Positions 268-37,528 of a stretch of 37,528 nt of DNA are shown here, in pieces. Numbering within the stretch: position 1 is the stretch's first letter; each line of letters starts with the position of its first letter. Position numbers and translations under genes: made by a program. Origin of the DNA: a virus (taxonomy: Duplodnaviria; Heunggongvirae; Uroviricota; Caudoviricetes); IMG/VR virus record IMGVR_UViG_2541047697_000003; one strand, written 5' to 3'. The notes beneath the pieces are model-generated. The model was given only the letters and a program-made list of their open reading frames with translations, made no database searches and was not told where the DNA came from.

Positions 268-288
268 AAGCCCTCGCGTTGAGGGCTT
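268..288 (+). terminator. hairpin terminator between convergent grxA and ybjM
   Basis: Inverted repeat aagccctc / gagggctt with a 5-nt loop, followed by a T-rich tract (ttattgatttttt), immediately after the grxA stop. Confidence 0.5.
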
Positions 289-665
289 TATTGATTTTTT
301 CTGTGCTGTGGTTTAAACAAACTACTGATAAATAAGAAACACAATGCCCCCAGCGCACACCAGAACACCGCACTTAATAACCATGCCAGCTCTTGCCAGA
401 ATGAGCGCGTCGGTGAAAAAAACAGCCGCATAATGAGCATCGAACAGGGTGCCGCCAGCATTGCGCCAAACAGAGGTTTCAGGACTTCTCTACGATGTGA
501 AAAGAAGCTGGCAACTGCACCAGGAAGAATGAAAAATAGCAAACCGATTTCAGGATGCCCGGCAGCCCGAAAAGCGCCTTTCATGTGCGTCGCCAGAAAA
601 AGACACACCACAATGAAGAGGACAAAACAGCAGATTGCCCCCGCCCAACGTTGTTTATGTTTCAC
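288..665 (-). CDS. ybjM: inner membrane protein YbjM
   Basis: 125-aa hydrophobic ORF convergent with grxA; matches YbjM by length and sequence from memory; start is GTG per the ORF track. Confidence 0.8.
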   Translation of the reverse strand: MKHKQRWAGAICCFVLFIVVCLFLATHMKGAFRAAGHPEIGLLFFILPGAVASFFSHRREVLKPLFGAMLAAPCSMLIMRLFFSPTRSFWQELAWLLSAVFWCALGALCFLFISSLFKPQHRKNQ

Positions 666-934
666 TCGTTCCTCCTGACACTGCGTCTATCGAACACATT
701 TTTCGCCAGTGTGGCGTTCAGTAAGATAAAGCCGCTTCGCATTCCATGCTAATATAGGCCAACGCAATTCATATAGCCGTTGATACCTAATGTGATTACA
801 CTAGTAAAATATATTGTTACTTTACTATCGTTTAGGTGCGCTGAATGAATCTGCGCCCTGAATTCTGGTAAAAAACATTATCGTAAATTACCATTTCTTT
901 CAACAGCTTACTAGTAAACAAGAAGTTAGCCTCC

Positions 935-2620
935 GTGAATATAAACGTCGCCGAATTGTTAAATGGGAATTACATTCTGTTATTATTTGTGGTCCTCGCG
1001 CTTGGGCTATGTCTCGGGAAATTACGACTTGGTTCGATCCAACTGGGTAATTCCATTGGCGTTTTAGTCGTATCGCTGTTATTAGGCCAACAACATTTCA
1101 GCATTAACACCGACGCGCTTAATCTTGGCTTTATGCTGTTTATTTTCTGCGTCGGGGTCGAAGCCGGACCGAACTTTTTTTCCATTTTTTTTCGCGATGG
1201 GAAAAATTACCTAATGTTAGCACTGGTGATGGTTGGCAGTGCGCTGGTGATCGCCTTAGGGTTAGGTAAGCTGTTTGGCTGGGATATTGGCCTGACGGCC
1301 GGTATGTTAGCTGGCTCTATGACGTCGACACCGGTTCTGGTCGGTGCTGGCGATACACTGCGTCATTCCGGCATGGAAAGCAGGCAGCTCTCACTGGCAC
1401 TGGATAATCTGAGCCTCGGGTATGCCTTAACCTATTTAATCGGTCTGGTGAGTTTGATTGTTGGTGCGCGTTACTTGCCGAAATTGCAGCATCAGGACTT
1501 ACAGACCAGCGCCCAGCAAATCGCCCGCGAACGTGGCCTGGACACTGATGCCAACCGTAAGGTTTATTTACCGGTGATCCGCGCCTACCGCGTCGGCCCG
1601 GAGCTGGTGGCCTGGACCGACGGCAAAAATCTGCGTGAACTGGGTATTTATCGACAAACTGGCTGCTACATTGAACGTATTCGACGTAACGGGATTCTGG
1701 CGAATCCAGACGGTGATGCTGTGCTACAAATGGGCGATGAAATAGCGTTGGTAGGCTATCCCGACGCCCACGCACGACTCGATCCCAGCTTCCGTAACGG
1801 CAAAGAAGTTTTCGATCGTGACCTTCTCGACATGCGTATCGTCACTGAAGAAGTGGTCGTTAAAAACCATAACGCCGTGGGCAAACGTCTCGCACAACTG
1901 AAGTTGACCGATCACGGTTGCTTCCTTAACCGCGTCATTCGTAGCCAGATTGAGATGCCGATAGATGACAACGTCGTGCTTAACAAAGGTGACGTTTTAC
2001 AAGTCAGCGGCGATGCCCGTCGCGTAAAAACCATCGCCGATCGCATCGGCTTTATCTCGATTCACAGCCAGGTCACTGACTTGCTGGCATTCTGCGCCTT
2101 CTTTGTTATTGGGCTGATGATCGGGATGATCACCTTCCAGTTCAGCACATTCAGTTTCGGCATGGGGAACGCTGCCGGGTTGTTATTCGCCGGAATTATG
2201 CTGGGCTTTATGCGCGCTAACCACCCGACCTTCGGTTACATTCCGCAGGGTGCATTAAGCATGGTGAAAGAGTTCGGCTTAATGGTGTTTATGGCAGGCG
2301 TTGGTCTGAGCGCCGGTAGCGGTATTAATAACGGCCTGGGCGCGATTGGCGGTCAGATGTTGATTGCCGGATTGATTGTCAGTCTTGTGCCAGTGGTTAT
2401 CTGTTTCTTGTTCGGTGCTTATGTATTGCGAATGAACCGCGCACTGTTGTTCGGCGCAATGATGGGCGCACGCACCTGCGCGCCGGCAATGGAGATCATC
2501 AGTGATACAGCTCGCAGTAACATCCCGGCGCTGGGCTATGCGGGCACCTATGCAATCGCCAACGTCCTGCTGACGCTGGCAGGGACAATCATCGTCATGG
2601 TATGGCCAGGATTAGGATAA
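935..2620 (+). CDS. ybjL: putative AAE-family transporter YbjL
   Basis: 561-aa ORF with a GTG start; hydrophobic N- and C-terminal membrane domains flank a soluble central region, typical of YbjL/YidE-type transporters. Confidence 0.85.
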
Positions 2621-7821: not shown

Positions 7822-8250
7822 CGTTGGCCCCGCTTCTCTGAATCGCTTTATACCGCCATTCCAGCACTTCGGTCAGCGGCATAACGTCAGTAACGGATGG
7901 CGGCCAGTGAAAAATGGTGGCGATATCTGCCACCAGATCGTCAACCGTCAGGCTGTCGGTAAACCGGCAAGCACCGACTTCTTCAACAAAAAAGTGACAA
8001 CCTCAACCGACATTGCTGTGAGATCTGCCGGGTCCATCTCTGCGATTTCCTGTGCAGTCAGTGCCGGACTGGAGATGCGGGGGATCACGGTCATCATCGC
8101 GTTCACATCCATATCCATAATGGCCTGCAGGCGTGTGCCGCGCAGCGCACCAGACTGAGGTTTACGCAGCACAATTTCGGTAATTTCTGTTTTACCGCGC
8201 TTGATGGCGGTATCCAGTTGAATGGTCTTTTCAGTCTGCTTATCACTCAT
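7814..8250 (-). CDS. gpE+E' product of a programmed -1 frameshift (extension in the -1 frame from the slippery site to a TGA at 7814-7816)
   Basis: Slippery T TTT TTG at 7987-7993 on the minus strand; the -1 frame stays open for 58 codons (FFVEEVGACRFTDSLTVDDLVADIATIF...RSGANDE) and stops just inside the T start codon region, as in P2 E/E'. Confidence 0.6.
7948..8250 (-). CDS. E: tail assembly chaperone gpE-like
   Basis: 100-aa ORF between FII and T; contains the slippery heptamer T-TTT-TTG near its 3' end. Confidence 0.8.
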   Translation of the reverse strand: MSDKQTEKTIQLDTAIKRGKTEITEIVLRKPQSGALRGTRLQAIMDMDVNAMMTVIPRISSPALTAQEIAEMDPADLTAMSVEVVTFLLKKSVLAGLPTA

Positions 8251-8304
8251 TTTGCTGTCCTGTAAATTGGGTTCTGGCGCGGTATCCCGCGCCGTTCAGA
8301 TATA

Positions 8305-8820
8305 TCAGAGGCCGAGGGCGTTGCGGTGCGCTTCCATCAGGTCCATACCGTCCACAATTTCCACCATGTTGATAAGGTCCACTTCATAGAGCACCTCACC
8401 ATTGATGGTCAGCTTCGCGTAGCTGTTGGTACTGGTCACTTTGGTGGTGTTGCTTTCGCCCGTCTTCCACTCGCCGGAATCCACTTCTTTGTGACGTCCA
8501 CGCACCACAAGCTCCACGGCCTGCACTTCTCCGGTATCGTCACGCTGGATAGAGCCAGTAAAGCGCAACTGGATGCCATCCACCGTGGCTTTGCCCATCT
8601 GCTTAAACAGCAGCAGTTCAGTACCACCAATGGAAAATTCTGTGTCCAGCGCACTGTCATCAAGCCCCAGATCCACATCAACTGCACCAGGCATTCCGCC
8701 GCCGCGATACTTCTCATATTTGCGGGTGAATTTCGGCAGCGTCAGCGACTCTACGATCCCCTGCCAGTTGTTCCCGTCGTTAAACAGGTTCAGATGTTTT
8801 AATTTGCGTGGTAAAGCCAT
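8305..8820 (-). CDS. FII: tail tube protein FII-like
   Basis: 171-aa ORF downstream of FI; size and position fit P2 FII. Confidence 0.9.
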   Translation of the reverse strand: MALPRKLKHLNLFNDGNNWQGIVESLTLPKFTRKYEKYRGGGMPGAVDVDLGLDDSALDTEFSIGGTELLLFKQMGKATVDGIQLRFTGSIQRDDTGEVQAVELVVRGRHKEVDSGEWKTGESNTTKVTSTNSYAKLTINGEVLYEVDLINMVEIVDGMDLMEAHRNALGL

Positions 8821-8829
8821 GTTGTCCCC

Positions 8830-10002
8830 TTACGCGCTGACCTGGCTGGCGAAATTCACCAGGTACTGATCGGTGATGCGCTGGCGCAGCATCAGATTTT
8901 CAAGTGGCGGCACTGGCGTGTAGTCATAGTCGATGGTGAGTTTTCCGGCTTTCAGCGAGTCTTTGTCGTTCACCGACTCATCCAGCCAGCAATCACCACC
9001 AATGAGATAGCCCTGACTGACCAGGCTGCGCATTTTGGCGCGGATACCTTCGATAATGTCGCGGGCCAGCGACGGGTTAAGCGGTTTATCCACCGCCCAC
9101 ATGTGTGCTTCTGCCATCGTGTCCATCAGCACCTGCGCCGTGCGGGTGTAGTTTTCGAAGGCAAAGAGCGGGTCATCACTCAGGCAGCGGGAACCCCAGA
9201 AGCGGAAACCGTCCTTGCGCACAAGCGTGGTGACGTCGTTCTGGTTCAGCAGACCTGCATCGGTTGCCGGGTCCTGCAGATCCCAGAACACATCAGCAGA
9301 AATTCCGGTGACACCGTTCACGCCCACGTTGGACAGGCTTTTGTGCCATCCAGTCTGCTCATCAATTTTGGCGCGCAGACCGAGCGCACGAGCGGTGGCA
9401 TATGCCGTTGCTTCGGCATTCAGCACCGTGTCCCAGCCAGTAAAGTCAGGCCAGATCAGCATCCCTTCGCGCTGGCTGAAGTTTTCGCGGTAAGTGATCG
9501 CCTCCTGCGCTGTCTTGCAGCCATACGCTGACAGGTAAGCAAACCCACGCAGGCTTTGCGCCACGCTCAGCAACTCAGTAGCTACCGCCTTGGTGTCGTG
9601 GCCTGGCACGCCGAGAATGCGCGGTTTAACGCCGAGCTGTGACTGGGCAGATAACAGGGCTTTCATACCTGTTTTTTTACCTTCAGCAGTCACTGCGCCG
9701 ATGATATTGGTCGTGGTTTCTTCTTCCGTTTCACCCTGCGGCACACGCACAACAACGGTCACGGGTTTTGCCTGGTCAGCGATGGCGTCCAGCGAACGGG
9801 CCAGCGTACCGGACTCACCCGCTTTACCGCTGGCAGTCAGCACATCAGTGATCAGCACTGGTTTATTAAGAGGAAACATTTTTGCATCGGCATCATCGCC
9901 CGTGCAGACCATACCCACGATGGCGGTGCTCACCGTGGTAATGGATCGGGTACCTTCGTTGACTTCAACAACGCGCACCCCGTGGTGGTAATCCTGAGCC
10001 AT
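8830..10002 (-). CDS. FI: contractile tail sheath protein FI-like
   Basis: 390-aa ORF heading the FI-FII-E-T-U-D operon. Confidence 0.9.
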
Positions 10003-10144: not shown

Positions 10145-10711
10145 TCAGGGAGATTCATTGCTCTTATTTGCCGGAAATTTTCGATAAATTGTAGAAACGC
10201 CTACATCAAAAATCAGTGCAATACGCTGTCTTGATTCTCCGGCCTTGAGTAAACGCCCAATCTGTGCCCACTGTTCGCTGGTCAACTTAGGACGGCGTCC
10301 ACCTACTCTGCCTTTAACACGAGCTGCAGCCAGCCCTGCCCTGGTACGTTCAACTATCAGTTCGCGTTCCATTTCAGCCAGGGCACCCATGACATGAAAA
10401 AAGAAACGGCCCATTGGGGTACTGGTATCAATACTGTCAGTCAGGTTTCGGAAATTCACGCCACGCTGGCGCAACTCTTCTATCAGCGTAACAAGATGCC
10501 GCATACTGCGCCCTAACCTGTCCAGCTTCCAGACAACCAGAGTGTCTCCTGCCGATAGTGTCCTGAGCAGTTTTTTCAGCCCCGGTCTTTCGGACTTAGT
10601 GCCACTGATTTTGTCCTCAAAAATCCGCTCACATCCCGCGCAGTTCAGTGCATTACGTTGCAAATCGGTGTTCTGGTCATTTGTTGACACGCGTACATAG
10701 CCAATAAGCAT
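10145..10711 (-). CDS. serine-recombinase DNA invertase (Gin/Hin/Cin/Pin family)
   Basis: 188 aa from the ATG at 10711; N-terminus MLIGYVRVSTNDQNTDLQRNAL with the catalytic Ser, and C-terminal HTH; near-identical in pattern to Mu Gin / P1 Cin. Confidence 0.9.
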   Translation of the reverse strand: MLIGYVRVSTNDQNTDLQRNALNCAGCERIFEDKISGTKSERPGLKKLLRTLSAGDTLVVWKLDRLGRSMRHLVTLIEELRQRGVNFRNLTDSIDTSTPMGRFFFHVMGALAEMERELIVERTRAGLAAARVKGRVGGRRPKLTSEQWAQIGRLLKAGESRQRIALIFDVGVSTIYRKFPANKSNESP

Positions 10712-10766
10712 GATCAATCCCCTGAATAAATACCGGGGATGATGCCAGTTAGCCGTTACCTCTGCA

Positions 10767-10792
10767 TTTTCTTAAACGTTGGTTTGGGAGAA
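10767..10792. other. gix/hix-like recombination site (invertase-proximal)
   Basis: Imperfect 26-bp dyad ttttcttaaacg-TT-GGTTTGGGAGAA; 16 bp (10779-10794) are a perfect inverted copy of 12593-12608. Confidence 0.7.
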
Positions 10793-11119
10793 GGAGCAAA
10801 ACTCAATGCAGCAACGGCTACATTAGGACGCACCGGTTTCATAGCTATACCGGTTATGATTGGTGGTATTGAGCAATCAGTAATCATTCAGTGGGGGTGG
10901 AATGCCGCAAAAGCATCTGCCTCTGGGGGGGATGGAAATACAGTTGTATTCCCGGTTGCGTTTAATAATGCCTGTGTTGCCGTTGTTGCAAATTATGACA
11001 ATGTCAGCGCACCTATCAATGCAGTGGCAACGGGGGGATATACAACCACTTCGTTTTTATTACGGTGCGCAGCTCAAACGGGTAGTTATTACTATAACTG
11101 GATTGCTATTGGGTATTAA
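10781..11119 (+). CDS. alternative tail-fibre C-terminal variable domain (promoterless cassette, fused to H constant region after inversion)
   Basis: Open frame begins at the crossover site with the same GLGEG junction as H and runs 112 codons to a TAA; no sensible independent start. Confidence 0.6.
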   Translation, partial: GLGEGAKLNAATATLGRTGFIAIPVMIGGIEQSVIIQWGWNAAKASASGGDGNTVVFPVAFNNACVAVVANYDNVSAPINAVATGGYTTTSFLLRCAAQTGSYYYNWIAIGY

Positions 11120-11120
11120 G

Positions 11121-11534
11121 ATGAAAATATACTGTTGCTTAAATACCGTTGGTTTTTTTATGGATGGCTGTGGCGTCATTCCGCCAGATTCTAAAGAAAT
11201 AACGGCAGAACACTGGCAGTCATTATTAAAATCTCAAGCTGAAGGAGGCGTGATCGATTTTTCTGTTTTTCCTCCTTCTATTAAAGAGGTTATCCGTACT
11301 CATGATGATGAAGTCGCAGATGCGAACTTTCAAAAGCAGATGCTTATCTCTGATGCAACTGATTTTATCAATAGCAGACAGTGGCAGGGTAAGGCTGCAT
11401 TGGGAAGACTTAAAGAAGATGAGCTGAAACAATATAATTTGTGGCTGGATTATCTGGAAGCACTGGAACTGGTTGATACATCCAGTGCACCAGATATTGA
11501 ATGGCCTACGCCTCCGGCAGTTCAGGCCAGATGA
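11121..11534 (+). CDS. alternative tail fibre assembly protein (Tfa')
   Basis: ATG one base after the cassette stop; C-terminus ...TSSAPDIEWPTPP parallels the C-terminus of the expressed Tfa (...TSTAPDVIWPELP). Confidence 0.65.
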   Translation: MKIYCCLNTVGFFMDGCGVIPPDSKEITAEHWQSLLKSQAEGGVIDFSVFPPSIKEVIRTHDDEVADANFQKQMLISDATDFINSRQWQGKAALGRLKEDELKQYNLWLDYLEALELVDTSSAPDIEWPTPPAVQAR

Positions 11535-15158: not shown

Positions 15159-15504
15159 TCTCTGCTCCTGTTGATACGGAAAGGGACACAGGCACACCGT
15201 TATTACATCGCCCGGTCAGCTCCACCACCATTGAACCGTCAAAATTGCTGTTGATGGTGATGGAATCCAGCGTCAGCCGTGGCTCCCAGCGACTCAGCGC
15301 CACATACACTGCCGACATGACCTGCAGGCGTAACGCCGGATTTTGTGGCTGGTCTATCAGTGCCGACAGCAGGGAACCATATTCACGACGGGCAATACGG
15401 CTACCCTGTGGCGTGATGAGTATGTCTTTAACAGACTGATTGAGGTGCTCAATATCGGTAATGGCCTTGCCCGTTGCGCTGTTCATGCCGTAATACATCG
15501 TCAT
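15145..15504 (-). CDS. W: baseplate wedge protein gpW-like
   Basis: 119-aa ORF with an ATG start overlapping the V stop. Confidence 0.85.
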   Translation of the reverse strand: MTMYYGMNSATGKAITDIEHLNQSVKDILITPQGSRIARREYGSLLSALIDQPQNPALRLQVMSAVYVALSRWEPRLTLDSITINSNFDGSMVVELTGRCNNGVPVSLSVSTGAENGSD

Positions 15505-16079
15505 ACCGGGCCTCCCGATGTGTCGCCGCCAGACTTCACTTTATTGTGCGCGTGGTCATCCACCACGATCTCGTTGGAACTCATCGGGCCGCCGCCCTGA
15601 GTCACACCACCGTTGATCACCACCTCACTGTTAATACGGGTGGTGTCGGCTTCCACGATAAACTCCCCGGTTTTGAAGGTGACGTTATCCACCGCCTCGA
15701 TCACCATGGATTTAATACCCCGAACGTACCAGCGCCCGGTTTCGGGGTCGTACTCAAACCAGCCGCCGTCTGGGTATTCCGTCACGTTGCCGTCCTCAGA
15801 CTTGGACGGCGGCGGAAACTGGTTTGAATAGACGGCAGGCAGGGCAAAGGCGGTTTCCAGATTGCCGCCCAGGCTGAACAGCACAACCTGCTCCCCCACA
15901 GACGGTTTCCACCAGGTGCGCGAGTTGCCCGCGCGCAGCGTCAGCCAGTTAATCCAGTTGGTTTCAAGCTCACCCGTTTTCACCCGGCACAGCCAGTTGT
16001 CCCGGTCCACTTCCGTTACAGTTCCGGTGCGGATTAGGTTGGTGATAAGGCGCATGATTTCTGTGAGTTGTGCGTTCAT
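15501..16079 (-). CDS. V: baseplate spike/assembly protein gpV-like
   Basis: 192-aa ORF with an ATG start; first gene of the V-W-J-I-H-G block. Confidence 0.85.
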   Translation of the reverse strand: MNAQLTEIMRLITNLIRTGTVTEVDRDNWLCRVKTGELETNWINWLTLRAGNSRTWWKPSVGEQVVLFSLGGNLETAFALPAVYSNQFPPPSKSEDGNVTEYPDGGWFEYDPETGRWYVRGIKSMVIEAVDNVTFKTGEFIVEADTTRINSEVVINGGVTQGGGPMSSNEIVVDDHAHNKVKSGGDTSGGPV

Positions 16080-16193
16080 AGCTATAGATTGCCATGAATG
16101 ATGTATCTAAGAACAAGGTGAGCTTAGTCTGGTCCATGACACAATTAAGAATTACTATATAAAAATTGTTAACTACTTGGTTGAGAAACAAAC

Positions 16194-17180
16194 ATGAAAA
16201 ATAAGAACCAGTATCAGGCTTTACTTAGAGGGAAGGTCGAATCGGCGATTGCTCAAGCCAAAAGTGCTGCAGGATTTTCCCACCAGGGTGTTAAGGGAGC
16301 TGTTCTAGAAATATTATTAAGTCAACTATTTCGACCTCTTTTGCCCGCAGATGTTGGCATCGGCACAGGGCAAATCATTGAACAGTATTCAGGAAAGTTA
16401 TCACCTCAAATAGATATTATTATTTACAATAAATCAATACTCCCTCCGATATTAATCGATGGTGCCACAGGGTTATTCCCAATAGAATCAGTTCTATATA
16501 CCATTGAGGTAAAAACCACATTAAGCTCATCGGAACTCAGCTCTGCACACTCAAGTGCAAAAGAACTTAATGAGAAATTCGGTTACTTACCTGGAATAAA
16601 AGATGAATCAGGCAAACTAATCCAACACAAAATAGAAAAACTTCGCTCGGTAATATTTGCTCTAAGTAGCGACTTATCACCAAATGGAATTACTGAAGCC
16701 GAAAGGTATAAAAAAATATACAAAGAAGACTTTCGTTACGTTACAGCAATTTGCGTTGCAGGTCGTGAGTATAGTTATGAAGATCGAGATTGCTGGGTAA
16801 CAATGCGTAATACTCAAGCGTATGATGAAATCCTTGCATTTATTGGAGGCATAACCAATACATACAAAGGTGTTTCAGAAAGTCGTGGGACACCATTGCT
16901 AGGATATTACATTGTTCCAGAGAATGTCGAACTGAGCCTTACAGCTTGTACCACACTCCCGGAATTGCAAGTTAAGTGCACGCAATGCGCTGAAACTAAA
17001 AAAATAATCCCCACCTTTGACAACGATGATGAACTAATACTAAAAAACTACACTCTTTCTGATAACAAGCCTTGTAAATGTGGTGGGGAATTTAAATCAG
17101 AAAAAGGTAATTTCACCATTAAAAATGGTCGACTGAGAGAAATAGAGTACAACGAGCCAGATCGAATTTACAAAGAGTAA
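16194..17180 (+). CDS. AT-rich cargo protein with a PD-(D/E)xK-like motif and a C-terminal Cys4 cluster (function unknown)
   Basis: 328-aa ORF with an ATG start; the only plus-strand gene in the late structural block, in the V-S slot; translation shows ...QIDIIIYNK...YTIEVKTT... and CTQC...CKCGG. Confidence 0.75.
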   Translation: MKNKNQYQALLRGKVESAIAQAKSAAGFSHQGVKGAVLEILLSQLFRPLLPADVGIGTGQIIEQYSGKLSPQIDIIIYNKSILPPILIDGATGLFPIESVLYTIEVKTTLSSSELSSAHSSAKELNEKFGYLPGIKDESGKLIQHKIEKLRSVIFALSSDLSPNGITEAERYKKIYKEDFRYVTAICVAGREYSYEDRDCWVTMRNTQAYDEILAFIGGITNTYKGVSESRGTPLLGYYIVPENVELSLTACTTLPELQVKCTQCAETKKIIPTFDNDDELILKNYTLSDNKPCKCGGEFKSEKGNFTIKNGRLREIEYNEPDRIYKE

Positions 17181-17194
17181 ATATAACGAAGGAA

Positions 17195-17641
17195 TTAAGG
17201 CCTTAGCCATTTATAAACGACAGATGCAATTTCATCTTTGTCAGATGAAGTAAAACCTAGTAACAGCCGCTCCGCATAACGTACCTCTGGCCCCCGGCGG
17301 CTTACACGATCGCGCAGGCCGTAATGGTGAACACGGGCAATACGCTGCACCTTACCTTCAAACTGTACGCTGGCAGAGTCGGCGCTGGCGGCAGTTTTCA
17401 GGTATTTTGTGGTGCGCAGCTTTGCAAACATCTGACGTTTGATGCGCCCCTTTTTACTGCGTGCTGTTACCCGTCGAGGTTCATAACTGCTGCCATCTGG
17501 ATTGCGCTGCATTCTGATATTCTGCTGCTGTGTCCGGCGCAGTTCCTGCGCCAGCTGGCGCATCATGCGGCTTCTTGCGGCTGGTTCCAGATTCGCCAGC
17601 AAAGCACTCAGCCAATCGTCCACCTTCTGCAGTTCAGCCAC
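17195..17641 (-). CDS. S: tail completion protein gpS-like
   Basis: 148-aa ORF with a GTG start overlapping the end of R; position as in P2. Confidence 0.75.
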   Translation of the reverse strand: MAELQKVDDWLSALLANLEPAARSRMMRQLAQELRRTQQQNIRMQRNPDGSSYEPRRVTARSKKGRIKRQMFAKLRTTKYLKTAASADSASVQFEGKVQRIARVHHYGLRDRVSRRGPEVRYAERLLLGFTSSDKDEIASVVYKWLRP

Positions 17642-18065
17642 GTTTCACCGTCCACATTTCTTCAGGTTCATCGGGTTCCGCTACCGCTTCAACACTCGAC
17701 ACACTGCCGTCAGTGCTGACCAGCACACGCTCCGTCAGTTGCAGGTTAAGGCTGATATCACAGACATCGTTGCGCAAAATATCCACCTCAAAGGTGAATA
17801 GTTTTTCCCGTAACGCCGGGTTATTGATGGCATCGGGCTGGTTATCACGCAGCCACAGCAAAACCGGGGCCATCAGCAGATTCTGGTCGCCGCTGAAATC
17901 CTCAATCACCACGTTCAGGGTGTAACGGTACTCCCATGACATGGAGCTGGCCCCCGTAGCAACCAGCGAACCGTTATCCACAAACAAATGCAGTTTGTCC
18001 GGGTTATTGCGGACATAAGGCACCGCTTTATTGAGGGCGTGGCGCAGGGATTGTGGTTTGTTCAC
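17634..18065 (-). CDS. R: tail completion protein gpR-like
   Basis: GTG at 18065 preceded by AGGAG at a 9-nt spacing; gives an N-terminus MNKPQSLRHAL like P2 R; the track start is a TTG 7 codons upstream. Confidence 0.75.
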   Translation of the reverse strand: MNKPQSLRHALNKAVPYVRNNPDKLHLFVDNGSLVATGASSMSWEYRYTLNVVIEDFSGDQNLLMAPVLLWLRDNQPDAINNPALREKLFTFEVDILRNDVCDISLNLQLTERVLVSTDGSVSSVEAVAEPDEPEEMWTVKRG

Positions 18066-25632: not shown

Positions 25633-26718
25633 CTAACGTTTCAACCAAAGGTCATCTACAGAAAACGAATCGAATTCATTCTCAGATGGAGAATAAATAA
25701 AGCTCACTGTAAAATACGGTCTAACCAAAATCTCTAAAGTCACAACGTCACCATCACCATGAGTAAATGGGAATGCCGAATCTAAATCGCTTTTATTTTC
25801 AATATAATCCAAATAAGGAATATCCACTTCAATAAAAACCCGTCTCAAATTAAAAGAATAGGCAATGTAATATTTATCCGCATCAATTGAAGTGATGCCT
25901 TCAATATAGCCATCCTCGAAATCTTCGATGACATCAACTCTAACATCCAAAACATTCGAAACTCTAGACTCAAAAATATTATTTTCAAGGTATTGACTAA
26001 GCATCATGTGATTAAAACTTGATAAATAATCGATACACTCACCTTCTAGAAACTCCTCGAAATAAGGCTCACTTCTTGCATGATCAAAAGCATGGATACT
26101 CTTATCAATAGATGATGTAACGAAGTCAAATAGCTTCCGATATGGAGTTATTTTTTGTGTTATGCCTAACTCTTCAATATCTCTTAGAAGATCATCATTA
26201 AACGTTGCAGGACCTTTACTGTTGGTAAAAAAGTCTGAGCTATTCTCAGTAATAAATACAAAATCATCATTACCCCCTGATGATTTGATATATTGAAGAA
26301 AAGATAACCAGATCAACGTATCACGGTATCCTTTTTCTTGTTCTGAGAAAGGTTTTATCTTTTCAAGGGCCCTACCAACCACCTTAGCATGTGGAATATC
26401 GTTATAATCTATTAAAATTAAATTATCAACTTCCTTATTTAATATTTCTTTCAAATCATATTGTTCAATACCTAAGTTTTCAATTTTAAAATCTATTGGA
26501 TTCTGATTAAGCTTTTTAATTTTACTAATAATGGAACGCATTTCATTTAATTGATTTTTGAGCTCTCTATTCCTGATATTGTTAGTCTCCTCAATTACTA
26601 AATTTGATAATAACAAGTCGTTACATTCATTATTCAAAAAATGGAAAAGAAGTTTAAAATTAGCATTTTTAGCAAACCAATTATTGTAAAATATATTTGT
26701 ATCCAAAAAAACTTTCAT
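25633..26718 (-). CDS. AT-rich cargo protein with an N-terminal PIN-like motif (function unknown)
   Basis: 361-aa ORF with an ATG start; N-terminus MKVFLDTNIFYNNW resembles the first acidic strand of PIN-fold nucleases; lies between Q and the putative cos. Confidence 0.7.
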   Translation of the reverse strand: MKVFLDTNIFYNNWFAKNANFKLLFHFLNNECNDLLLSNLVIEETNNIRNRELKNQLNEMRSIISKIKKLNQNPIDFKIENLGIEQYDLKEILNKEVDNLILIDYNDIPHAKVVGRALEKIKPFSEQEKGYRDTLIWLSFLQYIKSSGGNDDFVFITENSSDFFTNSKGPATFNDDLLRDIEELGITQKITPYRKLFDFVTSSIDKSIHAFDHARSEPYFEEFLEGECIDYLSSFNHMMLSQYLENNIFESRVSNVLDVRVDVIEDFEDGYIEGITSIDADKYYIAYSFNLRRVFIEVDIPYLDYIENKSDLDSAFPFTHGDGDVVTLEILVRPYFTVSFIYSPSENEFDSFSVDDLWLKR

Positions 26719-27240: not shown

Positions 27241-29133
27241 TTAATTTGTCCCATCACTAAAGAATTTGATTGCGTCAGTTAGTACATAGTCAATGAAAAT
27301 TTTTACGTGAAAGACCTGAAAAACGCTATTTTCTGAGTTTTGAATGAAATCTACAGCTATATCTTTTAGGTTGATCAACCAGTTATATTCTTCAATCAGT
27401 CTAGTTCTGGCATCCGCATCAGAATAACGACTCCGTAAGCTAAATGCCAGTTTCCTCATGATAACTGGATCAAGTTTCCTATAGCTTTCAATGAAAACAT
27501 CAGCAGGAACTAAGTGTAAAAAAGGTACGTCATGAAGATTTAACTGTCTATTATTAGAATGACTCAATTCAGATAACAACGATGATTTTCCCCTTTGTAA
27601 CTCATCTCTGAACTGCAATGCAAATTCCGAAATTGATTCATCAAACCGTTTCTTCCTTGCTATTTTAATATGTTCAATAATGAGCTTAAAGTCATCACTA
27701 TCCCTGTCAAGAAAACTTAAACTACGCCATCCCCTTAATTCGTTATAATGCGTTTGCGCATATTCCTTATGTACATCTTCAGCTCTCAGTCTATTATAAT
27801 AATTATTTATATTCTGTTTTGTCTCATTTATGAGATCATGAACATCATCTGTTGTTAGACCTTCTTTCGCCATTTCCAGCAAAATACTCGCTGTCATCAG
27901 GAGTTCACCTAAGGTAGTGATCTTACCTGAAAATAGGTTATCCTTAGCAATAGCGTACTGCTCATAAAGCATAGTTTCATTTAGTTCTCTATAGTTCCAC
28001 AAACACCTCCATGCTGGTGAATCGCTGCTTCTAAAAAAACGCGTAACATCCAACTGAGCAAGAAGATCACCCGTTACCTTTCCATCACAGATTAGTTCTC
28101 TCCAAGACGCGCCATCCAGTAACTTCTCGGTTAATACAGGAGACGAATATTTCTCGACAATCATGTCATACTTACTTTTGACGCGTTCTTTACCCAAAAA
28201 CATACCATAATTAACATTGCCGATTGAATTGAAATCCTCGTAGCTAAGATTCCCTCCCCGGTACTCCATCGAAAAAATTAACAATTGATGAAAAAACACC
28301 CTTATAAATTCATCGTTACTTAAATATTTATCTCCCAAAAGGGAAATAATTCGTTGTACATCGAGAAAGAACTGCCTCAAGTGTCTTAGATTATTATAAT
28401 TCGCTGACACATAGAGGTCCTCTATTGTCTGCATATCTTCTTTAAATATATTAGCAACATGCAAACTACTAATTACGTTCAAGAAAATCTTACAAGCACT
28501 ATGTAAATCTGACGTTACTTCAAATGTTTTACCTACTAGCTTTTCTTTTGTTCTCATGTATTCATTGCGATATTTCTCATCATCATTATTTATTCGCTTT
28601 TCTCTATTGATTATTTCATCTTCATTGGCAACCAAGATCGCTTTGTATCCGTTTACTTCCACAAAGTGATTTATATATCCAAATAAGATTGGTAAATCTA
28701 CACCAGCTCTCTCGACATCATCAAAGACCAGCACAAAACCATCTGGTTTTCTAGTAAAGTCGCTAAGATTAATGGTGGGAACATTGCTATTGATATCTAC
28801 GTCAGATTTATTATCGCCATTAAGATCGATCTTGAAAGTAGCCTTAAGCGTATTTTTTAGTACATTTGCACCAAAGATAAGGGCTTTGTTTGATAGGACA
28901 GGATGCAATTGACGATAGAACTCATCTTCAATCTGCTCAATAGAGTTGACGCCATACAAGCTCACTTTTAGAAATTTGAACTCTGAATGTTTCTGCTTAT
29001 ATTCTTCAAGAACTCGTTCAATGAACCAAGTTTTACCTGATCCCCAAGCACCTTTAAGCATAATGGCGTATTGAGGTTCAGTTTTAAGGCTAAGGTAATA
29101 TTCTATATAGTCTTTGATGTACGTATTGTGCAT
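27241..29133 (-). CDS. AT-rich cargo P-loop NTPase with a KAP-type Walker A (function unknown)
   Basis: 630 aa from the ATG at 29133 (track start is TTG at 29184); Walker A LKGAWGSGKTWF and Walker B-like FVLVFDDVER; long helical C-terminal region. Confidence 0.7.
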   Translation of the reverse strand: MHNTYIKDYIEYYLSLKTEPQYAIMLKGAWGSGKTWFIERVLEEYKQKHSEFKFLKVSLYGVNSIEQIEDEFYRQLHPVLSNKALIFGANVLKNTLKATFKIDLNGDNKSDVDINSNVPTINLSDFTRKPDGFVLVFDDVERAGVDLPILFGYINHFVEVNGYKAILVANEDEIINREKRINNDDEKYRNEYMRTKEKLVGKTFEVTSDLHSACKIFLNVISSLHVANIFKEDMQTIEDLYVSANYNNLRHLRQFFLDVQRIISLLGDKYLSNDEFIRVFFHQLLIFSMEYRGGNLSYEDFNSIGNVNYGMFLGKERVKSKYDMIVEKYSSPVLTEKLLDGASWRELICDGKVTGDLLAQLDVTRFFRSSDSPAWRCLWNYRELNETMLYEQYAIAKDNLFSGKITTLGELLMTASILLEMAKEGLTTDDVHDLINETKQNINNYYNRLRAEDVHKEYAQTHYNELRGWRSLSFLDRDSDDFKLIIEHIKIARKKRFDESISEFALQFRDELQRGKSSLLSELSHSNNRQLNLHDVPFLHLVPADVFIESYRKLDPVIMRKLAFSLRSRYSDADARTRLIEEYNWLINLKDIAVDFIQNSENSVFQVFHVKIFIDYVLTDAIKFFSDGTN

Positions 29134-29454
29134 TTTTAGTCCATTTTTATAAAATACATAAACATAGATGGTAAGTAGAGCCAAAGGCCAACTATGGAAA
29201 ATTCAATCGGTAGTGTACATTGTAAGGTTATTATTGGTAAATATTATAGGAATACCCATAATCTTACAAAATTCAGATTATCCGTTGCAAATTAGTCTGC
29301 TATTCGTTAATTGACGAAAGATAGCAGAAGAAATGTTCGCTTCTGGCACAAAGCGGACGATCACTTATAAAAATGACCGCCCACCTTACGCCTTATTTCA
29401 CTCATTGCCCAAACTAGCCCCCATCAGAGTGAATCCTCCTGGGGGCAACATTTC

Positions 29455-36287: not shown

Positions 36288-36475
36288 CTTTTGCTTTTAT
36301 ATCTGCGCCTAAAATAAAAATGAGCCACAGGTTAACCGCAAAAGTTACATGCTCACATAGCAAAAAGAATAGTCTACTTCATTATGGCTTCAGTGAGATG
36401 TATGGTCGCAGGATTTCATACATTGACACTGGTTATACATACAGTAAAAATGCTCTCTATTGGAGGGCATTTTTT

Positions 36476-37528
36476 ATGGCTGTACGAAAACTCACCACAG
36501 GAAAATGGCTTTGCGAATGTTACCCCGCCGGACGTAGTGGACGTCGTGTGCGTAAACAATTCGCCACCAAAGGCGAAGCACTGGCTTTTGAGCGTCACAC
36601 GATGGAAGAAACCGAAGCAAAGCCCTGGCTAGGTGAATCAGTGGATCGTCGAACACTGAAAGACGTGGTTGAGCTATGGTTCAAACTACATGGTAAATCA
36701 CTGACAGCTGGGCAGCATGTCTATGACAAATTGCTGCTGATGGTTGACGCTCTGGGCAATCCCCTTGCAACCGATCTAACCTCTAAAATGTTTGCCCACT
36801 ATCGAGATAAACGCCTGACAGGTGAGATCTACTTCAGCGAGAAATGGAAGAAAGGAGCAAGCCCGGTCACCATTAACCTGGAGCAAAGCTATCTAAGTAG
36901 TGTTTTTAGCGAACTATCCCGCCTGGGCGAATGGTCGTATCCGAACCCACTGGAGAACATGCGAAAATTCACCATCGCAGAAAAAGAGATGGCATGGCTT
37001 ACCCATGAGCAGATTGTTGAATTACTGGCTGATTGCAAACGTCATGACCCAATTCTGGCACTGGTAGTTAAGATATGCTTAAGCACAGGCGCACGCTGGC
37101 GAGAAGCCGTAAATCTTACTCGTTCACAGGTGACCAAATACCGAATTACCTTTGTAAGAACGAAGGGGAAGAAAAACAGAAGCATCCCTATCAGTAAAGA
37201 GCTTTACGAAGAGATCATGGCGCTTGATGGGTTCAATTTCTTCACAGACTGCTATTTTCAATTTTTATCCGTGATGGAAAAAACGTCTATCGTCCTCCCT
37301 CGCGGTCAACTGACACACGTTCTGCGCCATACGTTTGCGGCGCATTTCATGATGTCGGGTGGAAATATCCTTGCTTTGCAAAAAATCCTCGGACATCACG
37401 ATATAAAAATGACTATGCGTTACGCTCATCTGGCACCGGATCATCTGGAAACGGCGCTCCGTTTCAACCCTCTGGCAACGCTGCCAAGTGGCGACAAAGT
37501 GGCGGCAGCGGTTGGCATTACCCCGTAA
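36476..37528 (+). CDS. int: tyrosine integrase (P2/186 Int family)
   Basis: 350 aa from the ATG at 36476 with GGAGGG upstream (track ORF starts further up); C-terminal HxLRH ... RYAHL catalytic pattern; stop codon is the final triplet of the window. Confidence 0.9.
   Translation: MAVRKLTTGKWLCECYPAGRSGRRVRKQFATKGEALAFERHTMEETEAKPWLGESVDRRTLKDVVELWFKLHGKSLTAGQHVYDKLLLMVDALGNPLATDLTSKMFAHYRDKRLTGEIYFSEKWKKGASPVTINLEQSYLSSVFSELSRLGEWSYPNPLENMRKFTIAEKEMAWLTHEQIVELLADCKRHDPILALVVKICLSTGARWREAVNLTRSQVTKYRITFVRTKGKKNRSIPISKELYEEIMALDGFNFFTDCYFQFLSVMEKTSIVLPRGQLTHVLRHTFAAHFMMSGGNILALQKILGHHDIKMTMRYAHLAPDHLETALRFNPLATLPSGDKVAAAVGITP

What the first reader, a model, noticed from the sequence alone, without database searches (positions are those of the whole stretch)
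16080..17194. Opposite-strand AT-rich cargo gene in the V-S slot encodes a PD-(D/E)xK-like protein with a Cys4 cluster
A single 328-aa plus-strand gene sits between gpV and gpS in an otherwise co-directional minus-strand late block. It is visibly AT-rich against GC-rich neighbours and has no structural role in the P2 gene order. Its translation shows a nuclease-like core (an acidic helix, then QIDIIIY and TIEVK about 25 residues apart) and a C-terminal CTQC...CKCGG zinc-ribbon-like cluster. The V-S junction is a known variable slot in P2-like phages, so this looks like a prophage-borne anti-phage or exclusion nuclease. It also occupies where the V-operon late promoter should be, and no TGT-N12-ACA element is present in the 114-bp V-upstream gap.
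Basis: partly seen in the sequence, partly recalled or inferred. Interest (0 to 1): 0.8.

Follow-up and report, generated by a model that had tools for sequence, protein, structure and literature searches.

The report
Standalone NucC-like nuclease in P2 prophage slot
A P2-like prophage carries, between tail genes V and S, a foreign gene for a DNA-cutting enzyme related to the bacterial immune nuclease NucC that has lost NucC's signal-binding residues and gained a zinc-binding tail, so it is probably a self-contained anti-phage gene rather than a phage part.

Summary
The gene is real: 16194-17180 (+), 328 aa, 38% GC against 54-58% GC in the flanking genes V and S. It belongs to Pfam DUF6602. 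Sequence profile and predicted fold both place residues 1-245 closest to NucC, the cA3-activated nuclease of CBASS and type III CRISPR systems. The catalytic D74/E105/K107 are invariant. Two of NucC's cA3-binding residues are replaced by residues invariant in this family (R53→D53, Y81→I82). No cyclase or other conserved partner was found in 21 diverse loci. Residues 246-328 form an all-beta module with four invariant cysteines; only about a dozen of the 150 closest 50%-identity clusters have it. The V-S (P2 orf30) slot is a real cargo slot: every occupied example has one AT-rich opposite-strand gene, and two other cargos match PADLOC defence candidates. A TGT-N12-ACT element, one mismatch from consensus, sits exactly where relatives have perfect TGT-N12-ACA, 55 nt upstream of V. 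A DUF6602 protein, Damona, is a published single-gene defence, but I could not obtain its sequence to compare. Verdict: probably an autonomous, cA3-independent nuclease defence gene. It is a new variant of a known kind and of moderate interest.

The parts
16194..17180 (+). Cargo ORF, 328 aa plus stop: DUF6602 / NucC-like nuclease with a C-terminal Cys4 module
16194..16928 (+). NucC-like PD-(D/E)xK core, residues 1-245. Catalytic codons: D74 = 16413-16415, E105 = 16506-16508, K107 = 16512-16514. D53 and I82 replace NucC's cA3-binding R53 and Y81
   Evidence: PADLOC NucC effector model aligns residues 6-216. Core-only relatives match profile positions 5-243
16929..17177 (+). C-terminal all-beta Cys4 zinc-ribbon-like module, residues 246-328. 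Cys codons: C262 = 16977-16979, C265 = 16986-16988, C294 = 17073-17075, C296 = 17079-17081
16126..16143 (-). Homologue of the P2-type late-promoter activator site upstream of V: TGT-N12-ACT, one mismatch, centre 55 nt from the V ATG
   Evidence: P2's pV activator site is annotated in the equivalent orf30-V gap
16136..16163 (+). Putative sigma-70 promoter of the cargo gene: ATGACA-16 nt-TATAAA, 10 of 12 matches. Its -35 hexamer lies inside the pV activator-site homologue. Inferred, not shown
   Evidence: The tool's stricter scan missed it because the last base of the -10 hexamer is A
17181..17194 (.). 14-bp tail-to-tail spacer between the cargo stop and the gpS stop, with no terminator-like hairpin
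15501..16079 (-). gpV baseplate spike gene, left anchor of the slot
17195..17641 (-). gpS tail-completion gene, right anchor of the slot
15398..17915 (.). Tract 99.8% identical to the E. coli A41 prophage inside a backbone that is 93-98% identical: a recently exchanged cargo-plus-flanks segment

Best explanation
The gene is a horizontally acquired, single-gene cargo (a moron) in the S-V (P2 orf30) slot of a Fels-2/186-like P2-family prophage. It is probably transcribed from its own promoter, divergently from the V late operon. It encodes a Mg2+-dependent PD-(D/E)xK DNA endonuclease descended from the NucC lineage, with catalytic D74/E105/K107, fused to a C-terminal Cys4 zinc-ribbon module. Unlike NucC, it is most likely not switched on by cyclic tri-AMP. 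Two of NucC's ligand-contacting side chains are replaced and no cyclase accompanies it. I infer that it works as an autonomous anti-phage or exclusion nuclease that cuts DNA when an infecting phage supplies a cue. The zinc ribbon, and the retained gate-loop-like hairpin at about residues 131-146, would act as the sensing or gating element in place of cA3. Shown: the gene, its fold relationship, the catalytic and Cys4 conservation, the loss of R53/Y81 equivalents, the lack of a partner gene, the slot architecture and the recent exchange of the segment. Inferred: nuclease activity, expression in the lysogen, the defence role, and the sensing role of the ribbon.
For: Gene and composition. Family: Pfam DUF6602, 77 bits against a cut-off of 27; PADLOC Cas-associated PD_DExK 6.6e-32 and NucC 7e-14. 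Homology to solved NucC: profile E 8.7e-12. The AF2 model (pLDDT 85, pTM 0.83) matches NucC with Foldseek E 6e-12 and TM 0.62-0.73 normalised to NucC over 200-245 columns; the next hits are type II restriction enzymes NgoMIV and SgrAI. The catalytic IDx30E[AV]K motif is invariant and maps onto Ec NucC D73/E104/K106. NucC's cAAA contacts R53 and Y81, kept in all four solved NucCs, are an invariant D53 and I82 here. No cyclase is present in the prophage. No neighbour family recurs across 21 diverse loci, and no cyclase appears in any inspected context. Mobile or defence-type contexts: the same V-S slot in a Kluyvera P2-like prophage at 62% identity; a different slot of a Pantoea P2-like prophage; an integrase/AlpA/DUF927 island at smpB in Enterobacter; beside TIR_2 and NYN genes; beside HicAB. 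The distribution is sporadic: 18 loci in about 100,000 species genomes and 3 of 5,426 E. coli genomes. In the slot, all nine occupied examples hold one AT-rich opposite-strand gene, and two other cargos match PADLOC candidates PDC-S15 and PDC-S31. A DUF6602 protein with the same PD_DExK and CBASS-endonuclease hits, Damona, gave phage resistance when expressed from a plasmid under an inducible promoter.
Against: No phenotype or biochemistry is available for this protein or its zinc-ribbon subfamily. PADLOC has no system-level model for it. Damona's sequence could not be obtained, so the link is at domain level only; it appears to be a distant relative, because no large V. cholerae cluster showed up in either family search. 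Loss of two cA3 contacts does not exclude another small-molecule ligand. NucC's T226/V227 and gate-loop latch could not be aligned, and a hairpin with near-invariant Y131 and H145 persists. Oligomeric state and domain packing could not be examined. Several homologues sit in unremarkable chromosomal contexts. The promoter call is a consensus match only.
Confidence: 0.6

Rival explanations
1. It is a solitary restriction-type endonuclease, for example modification-dependent (type IV-like) or narrowly sequence-specific. It would be constitutively active and spare host DNA through target specificity, with the zinc ribbon contributing DNA recognition, rather than being switched on by infection.
For: After NucC, the next structural neighbours are type II restriction enzymes NgoMIV, SgrAI and Bse634I. 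The NucC paper states the same kinship. The protein is a single gene with no regulator. The weak fold hits of the C-terminal module are to bL33 and RPB12, zinc-ribbon subunits of the ribosome and RNA polymerase.
Against: No methyltransferase is adjacent in any locus examined. The match to restriction enzymes is marginal (E 4.5e-3 or worse, TM about 0.25) compared with NucC. NucC-type embellishments, including a hairpin at the gate-loop position, are retained, which suggests allosteric control. The ribbon has no significant match to a known DNA-binding module.
Confidence: 0.18
2. It is a canonical second-messenger effector that works in trans. It would respond to cA3 or a related cyclic oligonucleotide made by a CBASS or type III CRISPR system elsewhere in the host, or it would eavesdrop on such signals.
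For: The whole NucC fold is retained, including a hairpin where NucC has its gate loop. PADLOC's NucC effector model aligns over residues 6-216.
Against: NucC's ligand-binding R53 and Y81, whose mutation abolishes activation, are an invariant Asp and Ile in all 30 family members. The Asp reverses the charge at a phosphate-contacting position. No cyclase lies within 4-8 kb in any of about 25 loci. The gene travels alone between prophages and islands.
Confidence: 0.07
3. It is a free-standing homing-type endonuclease or selfish element. It would cut the empty S-V junction of related prophages and spread by repair from the cargo-bearing allele.
For: The insertion is precise, between the S stop and the pV activator site. 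A 62%-identical homologue occupies the same slot in Kluyvera. A 2.5-kb tract at 99.8% identity covers the cargo and both flanks inside a backbone at 93-98%, which resembles a co-conversion tract. The only mismatch in the otherwise perfect pV element occurs in the cargo-bearing allele.
Against: Unrelated cargos share exactly the same slot architecture, so the precision belongs to the slot, not to this gene. Homologues also lie in a different P2 slot, in integrase islands and in plain chromosomal sites with unrelated flanks. The divergent orientation and the putative sigma-70 promoter suggest expression in the lysogen rather than during lytic co-infection. Ordinary homologous recombination explains the tract equally well.
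Confidence: 0.06
4. It is a phage-serving accessory nuclease used in the phage's own cycle, for example host DNA degradation or recombination and repair, rather than a defence gene.
For: It is phage-borne and predicted to be a nuclease.
Against: Most related prophages lack it: 24 of 32 sampled two-flank E. coli rows have an empty slot, and only 3 of 1,048 genomes with a V or S match carry this gene. It is oriented against the late operons. Most homologues are outside phages. Its nearest characterised relatives are immune effectors.
Confidence: 0.06

Closest known systems
NucC (cA3-activated endonuclease of CBASS and type III-B CRISPR; PDB 6P7O, 6P7P, 6Q1H, 6UXF, 7ZGV)
   Same: Restriction-endonuclease-like fold over nearly the whole NucC chain (TM 0.62-0.73). 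Same IDx30E[AV]K catalytic motif with almost the same numbering. Shared N-terminal H30/K34/G35/E39 and L50-P51 positions. A hairpin at the gate-loop position.
   Different: R53→D53 and Y81→I82 at cA3-contacting positions, invariant in the family. No CD-NTase or Cas10 neighbour. An extra ~80-residue Cys4 module that NucC (241 aa) lacks. Only 16-21% identity.
Damona (single-gene anti-phage cassette of the V. cholerae N16961 chromosomal integron; Darracq et al., bioRxiv 10.1101/2024.07.02.601686, Science 2025)
   Same: A DUF6602 domain with secondary hits to Cas-associated PD_DExK and the CBASS small endonuclease, the same hit signature as here. Single gene. Homologues are reported in prophages.
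   Different: No large V. cholerae cluster appeared in the top hits of either the zinc-ribbon family or the core-only family, so it is probably a distant DUF6602 branch. Whether it has a zinc ribbon is unknown. It sits in an integron cassette, not a P2 slot.
P2 Orf30 and other S-V slot cargos (RE-2010 gp27; E. coli FRG, DUF2971 and DUF6216 cargos)
   Same: Same slot, same opposite-strand orientation, single AT-rich gene, ends tail-to-tail against S, with the pV activator site kept between cargo and V.
   Different: No sequence similarity to P2 Orf30 (E 0.73). The other cargos belong to unrelated families.
P2 exclusion genes old, tin and fun(Z), and the cos-proximal P2 hotspot of Rousset et al. 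2022
   Same: Non-essential cargo of P2-family prophages in defined variable loci that excludes other phages. This window also carries PIN_12 and KAP-NTPase (PDC-S49) cargo at the cos-proximal hotspot.
   Different: A different locus (S-V) that Rousset et al. did not mine systematically, and an unrelated protein family.
Core-only DUF6602 proteins (~235-255 aa) and variants with a helical C-terminus
   Same: The same NucC-like core with LLPaD-GxGTG, QQD and ESVLYxIEVK motifs, at E 1e-40 to 1e-75 against the family profile. They also stand alone.
   Different: They lack the Cys4 module, and some carry a ~90-residue helical extension instead. Only about 12 of the 150 best 50%-identity clusters extend through the ribbon.

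Membership tests
Pfam DUF6602 (PF20247) | Score above Pfam's gathering threshold | tested here: met
   77.1 bits against a cut-off of 27, E 1.1e-21, residues 25-126. RefSeq annotates the E. coli copies the same way.
NucC (cA3-activated CBASS / type III CRISPR endonuclease) | Restriction-endonuclease-like fold with the IDx30E[AV]K active site | tested here: met
   Foldseek E 6e-12 and TM 0.62-0.73 normalised to NucC. D74/E105/K107 are invariant and align to Ec NucC D73/E104/K106.
NucC (cA3-activated CBASS / type III CRISPR endonuclease) | cAAA-binding side chains R53 and Y81, whose mutation abolishes activation | tested here: not met
   They align to D53 and I82, invariant in 30 of 30 family members, while all four solved NucCs keep R and Y.
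NucC (cA3-activated CBASS / type III CRISPR endonuclease) | cAAA contacts T226/V227 and gate-loop latch residues H136/Y141 | tested here: inconclusive
   HMMER alignments stop at about residue 130.
NucC (cA3-activated CBASS / type III CRISPR endonuclease) | Genomic association with a CD-NTase or Cas10 cyclase | tested here: not met
   None in the prophage. None in about 25 homologue loci, and no recurring neighbour family.
NucC (cA3-activated CBASS / type III CRISPR endonuclease) | Homotrimer that assembles into a hexamer on activation | not testable with these tools
   Only monomer prediction is offered.
Damona defence system | Single gene with DUF6602 plus PD_DExK and CBASS-endonuclease similarity | tested here: met
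Damona defence system | Direct (blastp-level) homology to the V. cholerae N16961 Damona protein | not tested
   The sequence could not be retrieved: the supplement is truncated and the Science version is not held. No V. cholerae cluster appeared among the top hits.
Damona defence system | Phage-resistance phenotype | not testable with these tools
   Needs an experiment.
P2 orf30-slot cargo | Non-structural gene between S and V, on the opposite strand, with the pV activator site retained next to V | tested here: met
P2 Orf30 protein family | Sequence homology to P2 Orf30 | tested here: not met
   BLASTP best E 0.73.
Zinc ribbon | Two Cys knuckles (CxxC ... CxC or CxxC) on beta hairpins | tested here: met
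   C262/C265 and C294/C296 are invariant. The second knuckle is CxC in enteric members and CPxC elsewhere. The model is all-beta.
Zinc ribbon | Significant structural match to a known zinc-ribbon protein | tested here: inconclusive
Type II restriction-modification system | Adjacent cognate methyltransferase | tested here: not met
   No methyltransferase adjoins the gene in the window or in homologue loci. The only one nearby, in Devosia, has N6_N4_Mtase and RAMA domains and lies between this gene and an RNase HII gene; I read it as a CcrM-type housekeeping methylase from my own knowledge.

The most novel reading that the evidence does not exclude
The zinc-ribbon DUF6602 proteins are NucC descendants that have been uncoupled from cyclic-oligonucleotide signalling. 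The former cA3 pocket (now D53, I82 and a GxGxG strand) and the gate-loop-like hairpin would be re-used. The appended zinc ribbon, or in sister clades a helical tail, would act as a built-in sensor that directly recognises a phage component and drives the trimer-to-hexamer activation that cA3 drives in NucC. That would be a natural example of a signalling-dependent immune effector turned into an autonomous one-protein sensor-effector through exchangeable C-terminal modules. It would also mark the P2 S-V (orf30) slot as a third, unmined hotspot of single-gene defences.
Probability: 0.3. Interest if true: 0.65.

Novelty: new variant of a known kind. Interest (0 to 1): 0.45.

Why it matters
NucC is the textbook case of a nuclease held off until a cyclic trinucleotide arrives. 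This is a close structural relative that keeps the catalytic machinery, has lost two signal-contacting residues, travels without a cyclase and carries a private zinc-binding module. That makes it a tractable system for asking how immune effectors become independent of their sensors, or the reverse. Practically, the analysis shows that the S-V (orf30) slot of P2-family prophages has a fixed architecture: one AT-rich gene on the opposite strand, placed between the S stop and the pV activator site. Its cargos are diverse and include PADLOC defence candidates. The two flanking genes could therefore serve as anchors for mining single-gene defence candidates, as the cos-proximal hotspot already does. 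If the gene turns out not to defend, the result still explains a rare accessory gene found in E. coli and Salmonella prophages.

Tried and rejected
1. Retrieving the Damona sequence. The preprint text gives no gene identifier, the supplement held is truncated to Table S1, and the Science version is not held. Family searches and the genome scan returned no V. cholerae or Acinetobacter member, and the cluster look-up gave no organism names. Membership in Damona is therefore left open.

2. Homology between this protein and P2 Orf30: rejected (E 0.73). Orf30 and RE-2010 gp27 have no Pfam or PADLOC hits.

4. Looking for a partner gene. All-against-all comparison of neighbours in 21 loci found only P2 structural genes shared among the three P2-like prophages.

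5. A cyclase in the prophage. The other cargos are a PIN_12 protein and a KAP NTPase.

6. Phage records. There is no nucleotide match, and only a 37%-identical partial protein match in two Klebsiella phages.

7. NCBIfam gave no hit. PHROGs gave only an unknown-function family.

8. The tool's promoter and terminator scan found nothing useful in the gap. A relaxed scan gave one 10-of-12 promoter candidate, which I treat as inference only.

10. Papers on domain-centric defence discovery and on NucC-like proteins did not mention this family.
Full report
**What is there.** The window holds a P2-family prophage of the Fels-2/186 type. The backbone genes have the expected Pfam families and are 83-86% identical to Fels-2 and related phages. 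Between the baseplate gene V (15501-16079, minus) and the tail-completion gene S (17195-17641, minus) lies one plus-strand ORF, 16194-17180, of 328 aa. Its GC content is 38.3%, against 57.9% for V and 53.7% for S. The gap to V is 114 bp and the gap to the S stop is 14 bp.

**The protein family.** A database search found 298 homologues. The best 120 share 50-99% identity, and nearly all align over more than 95% of the length and are about 320 aa long. They come from Gamma-, Beta- and Epsilonproteobacteria and a few other phyla, and none has a functional name beyond DUF6602. In an alignment of 30 members at 49-71% identity, the following are invariant: H30, K34, E39, D53, G55/G57/G59, D74, I82, E98, E105, K107, C187, and the four cysteines C262, C265, C294 and C296. 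The gene is therefore real and under constraint along its whole length.

**Fold and nearest characterised relative.**
- Pfam places residues 25-126 in DUF6602 (E 1e-21).
- PADLOC matches a CRISPR-associated PD_DExK model (6.6e-32) and two NucC effector models (7e-14), one aligning residues 6-216.
- A profile of the family hits the solved NucC proteins of Serratia, V. metoecus, P. aeruginosa and E. coli (E 8.7e-12 to 3e-5).
- An AlphaFold2 model (pLDDT 85, pTM 0.83) matches NucC structures with Foldseek E 6e-12 to 9e-9 and TM 0.62-0.73 normalised to NucC. After a large gap come the restriction enzymes NgoMIV and SgrAI.
- Residues 1-245 are thus a NucC-like domain, and residues 246-328 are an addition that NucC lacks.

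**Same catalytic site, different control site.** Lau et al. (bioRxiv 10.1101/694703) define Ec NucC's active site as IDx30EAK with D73, E104 and K106. [quoted passage not shown] Mutating R53, Y81 or T226 abolishes activation.
- In the HMMER alignments, D73/E104/K106 align with D74/E105/K107 of this protein.
- R53 aligns with D53 and Y81 aligns with I82.
- All four solved NucCs keep R and Y, while all 30 family members have D and I.
- The C-terminal contacts could not be aligned.
- A hairpin with near-invariant Y131, G134 and H145 remains where NucC has its gate loop.
- The catalytic feature of NucC is met, and the ligand-binding feature, as far as it can be tested, is not.

**No partner gene.** The prophage has no cyclase. 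Its other cargos are a PIN_12 protein (25633-26718) and a KAP NTPase that matches PADLOC candidate PDC-S49 (27241-29184), both at the cos-proximal hotspot. Contexts of homologues are:
- the same V-S slot of a Kluyvera P2-like prophage, at 62% identity;
- a Pantoea P2-like prophage, but downstream of tail-fibre gene H;
- an integrase/AlpA/DUF927 island next to smpB in Enterobacter hormaechei;
- next to TIR_2 and NYN genes in Microbulbifer;
- next to HicAB in Paraburkholderia.

An all-against-all comparison of neighbours across 21 loci found no recurring family other than P2 structural genes. The distribution is sparse: 18 loci in about 100,000 species-representative genomes and 3 of 5,426 complete E. 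coli genomes.

**The zinc-ribbon module marks a subclade.**
- Against 1.84 billion representative proteins, the family profile finds 4,437 relatives at E ≤ 1e-3 and 236 at E ≤ 1e-30.
- Among the best 150 clusters, only about a dozen extend through the ribbon.
- Most are 235-255 aa core-only proteins that match profile positions 5-243.
- A few carry a ~90-residue helical C-terminus instead.
- Core-only relatives also stand alone.
- The core therefore comes with exchangeable C-terminal modules, which suggests, but does not show, a sensing or gating role.

**The slot.**
- P2 itself has the nonessential orf30 in this position on the opposite strand, with the pV activator site annotated in the orf30-V gap.
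- PMC3091744 names orf30 as one of three regions where P2-like phages carry foreign genes.
- Rousset et al. mined only the cos-proximal locus.
- In a spread sample of E. coli genomes, 24 of 32 rows with both flanks have an empty slot. Eight carry cargo: DUF6602, FRG, DUF2971, DUF6216 and hypothetical proteins of several sizes.
- In all nine occupied slots examined, the cargo is one gene on the opposite strand, with 33-38% GC against 52-61% in the flanks, ending −59 to +26 bp from S.
- The FRG and DUF2971 cargos match PADLOC candidates PDC-S15 and PDC-S31.
- P2 Orf30 is unrelated to this protein.

**The promoter claim.**
- The exact pattern TGT-N12-ACA is absent from the gap, and across the window it occurs no more often than chance predicts.
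- Alignment of V-upstream regions shows a perfect element centred 55-57 nt before the V ATG in Fels-2 (empty slot), in RE-2010, in the Kluyvera prophage and in six E. coli prophages.
- The window has TGT-N12-ACT at the same position, 16143-16126.
- P2's own annotated pV site is also not a perfect match.
- The cargo therefore sits between the S stop and the activator site and does not replace the promoter.
- The single mismatch, and the overlap of a candidate cargo promoter (ATGACA-16-TATAAA, 16136-16163) with that site, are unexplained details.

**Recent mobility.** The E. coli A41 prophage is 93-98% identical to the window along the backbone. From about 15398 to 17915 there are only 5 differences in 2.5 kb. 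The cargo and about 0.7-0.8 kb of each flank were exchanged recently. Ordinary homologous recombination would do this, and so would homing.

**Interpretation.** The best reading, at confidence 0.6, is an autonomous NucC-derived DNA endonuclease that serves as a prophage-borne anti-phage or exclusion gene and is not controlled by cA3. Indirect support comes from Damona, a V. cholerae integron cassette with a DUF6602 domain and the same secondary hits, which conferred phage resistance. I could not obtain its sequence. It appears to be a distant branch, because no large V. cholerae cluster appeared in either family search. The rivals are:
- a solitary restriction-type nuclease (0.18);
- a trans-acting second-messenger effector (0.07);
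- a homing-type selfish nuclease (0.06);
- a phage-serving accessory nuclease (0.06).

**Novelty and score.** The domain family and the idea of prophage hotspot nucleases are known, and a DUF6602 defence gene has been published. New here are three things:
- the zinc-ribbon subclade;
- the evidence that the DUF6602 lineage has lost two of NucC's cA3 contacts and has no cyclase partner;
- the fixed architecture and diversity of the S-V slot.

I rate it a new variant of a known kind, with interest 0.45.

Noticed in passing
window 25633-26718 (-) and 27241-29184 (-): Between the portal gene and the replication gene, at the cos-proximal hotspot described by Rousset et al., the prophage carries a PIN_12-domain protein (E 2e-27) and a KAP-family P-loop NTPase. 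The NTPase matches PADLOC candidate defence family PDC-S49 (E 1e-156). This is probably a second defence cargo.
   Followed up: partly
window 15398-17915 compared with L001 (E. coli A41 prophage): A 2.5-kb tract covering part of V, the cargo, S and the start of R is 99.8% identical (5 mismatches) between the two prophages. The surrounding backbone is 93-98% identical. This indicates recent recombinational exchange of the cargo together with its flanks.
   Followed up: yes
window 16126-16143 (-) and 16136-16163 (+): The pV activator-site homologue has ACA→ACT only in the prophages carrying this DUF6602 cargo; eight other occupied slots and Fels-2 have a perfect site. The -35 hexamer of the best candidate promoter for the cargo gene lies inside this site, which hints at coupled or competing divergent transcription.
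   Followed up: partly
window 17181-17194: Only 14 bp separate the cargo stop from the S stop, and no terminator-like hairpin was found. P2 has an annotated terminator after S. Late transcripts from the lysis-R-S operon may therefore read antisense through the cargo gene.
   Followed up: no
window 10145-10717 (-) and 10739-11534 (+): A resolvase-family DNA invertase (E 2e-51) sits next to plus-strand tail-fibre-assembly-like ORFs. This looks like an invertible tail-fibre host-range segment. In the E. coli A41 relative the adjacent tail-fibre gene is annotated as a frameshifted fragment.
   Followed up: no
L036-L041 (E. coli), L014 (RE-2010), L012 (P2): The V-S slot holds at least seven unrelated single-gene cargos with one common architecture. 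Two of them, FRG-domain and DUF2971, match PADLOC candidates PDC-S15 and PDC-S31. The rest have no defence annotation.
   Followed up: yes
L015 (Pantoea sp. SOD02) 8001-8948: A 59%-identical homologue lies in another P2-like prophage, but downstream of tail-fibre gene H (the Z/fun-type region) rather than between V and S. The gene family has therefore entered more than one P2 variable locus.
   Followed up: partly
proteins P0148 and P0187 (distant ribbon-bearing relatives): These keep the Cys4 ribbon but have lost catalytic residues: IEVK has become IHII in both, and D74 has become S in P0148. They may be inactive paralogues or regulators.
   Followed up: no
proteins P0143, P0157, P0172, P0174: These close relatives of the nuclease core carry a ~90-residue helical C-terminal extension in place of the zinc ribbon, which points to modular C-terminal domains on a common NucC-like core.
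   Followed up: partly
window 288-2620: The left end of the window is host DNA: a YbjM-family membrane protein and an Asp-Al_Ex/TrkA_C permease. The prophage therefore ends near 2.7-3.1 kb, and the integrase gene runs off the right end at 36320-37528.
   Followed up: partly
H4 / MK422451.1 42130-42429 (Klebsiella phage ST13-OXA48phi12.3): This is the only phage-record relative. An unannotated protein shares 37% identity with residues 9-106, so a different DUF6602 branch is present in Klebsiella temperate phages (compare phrog_32765).
   Followed up: no
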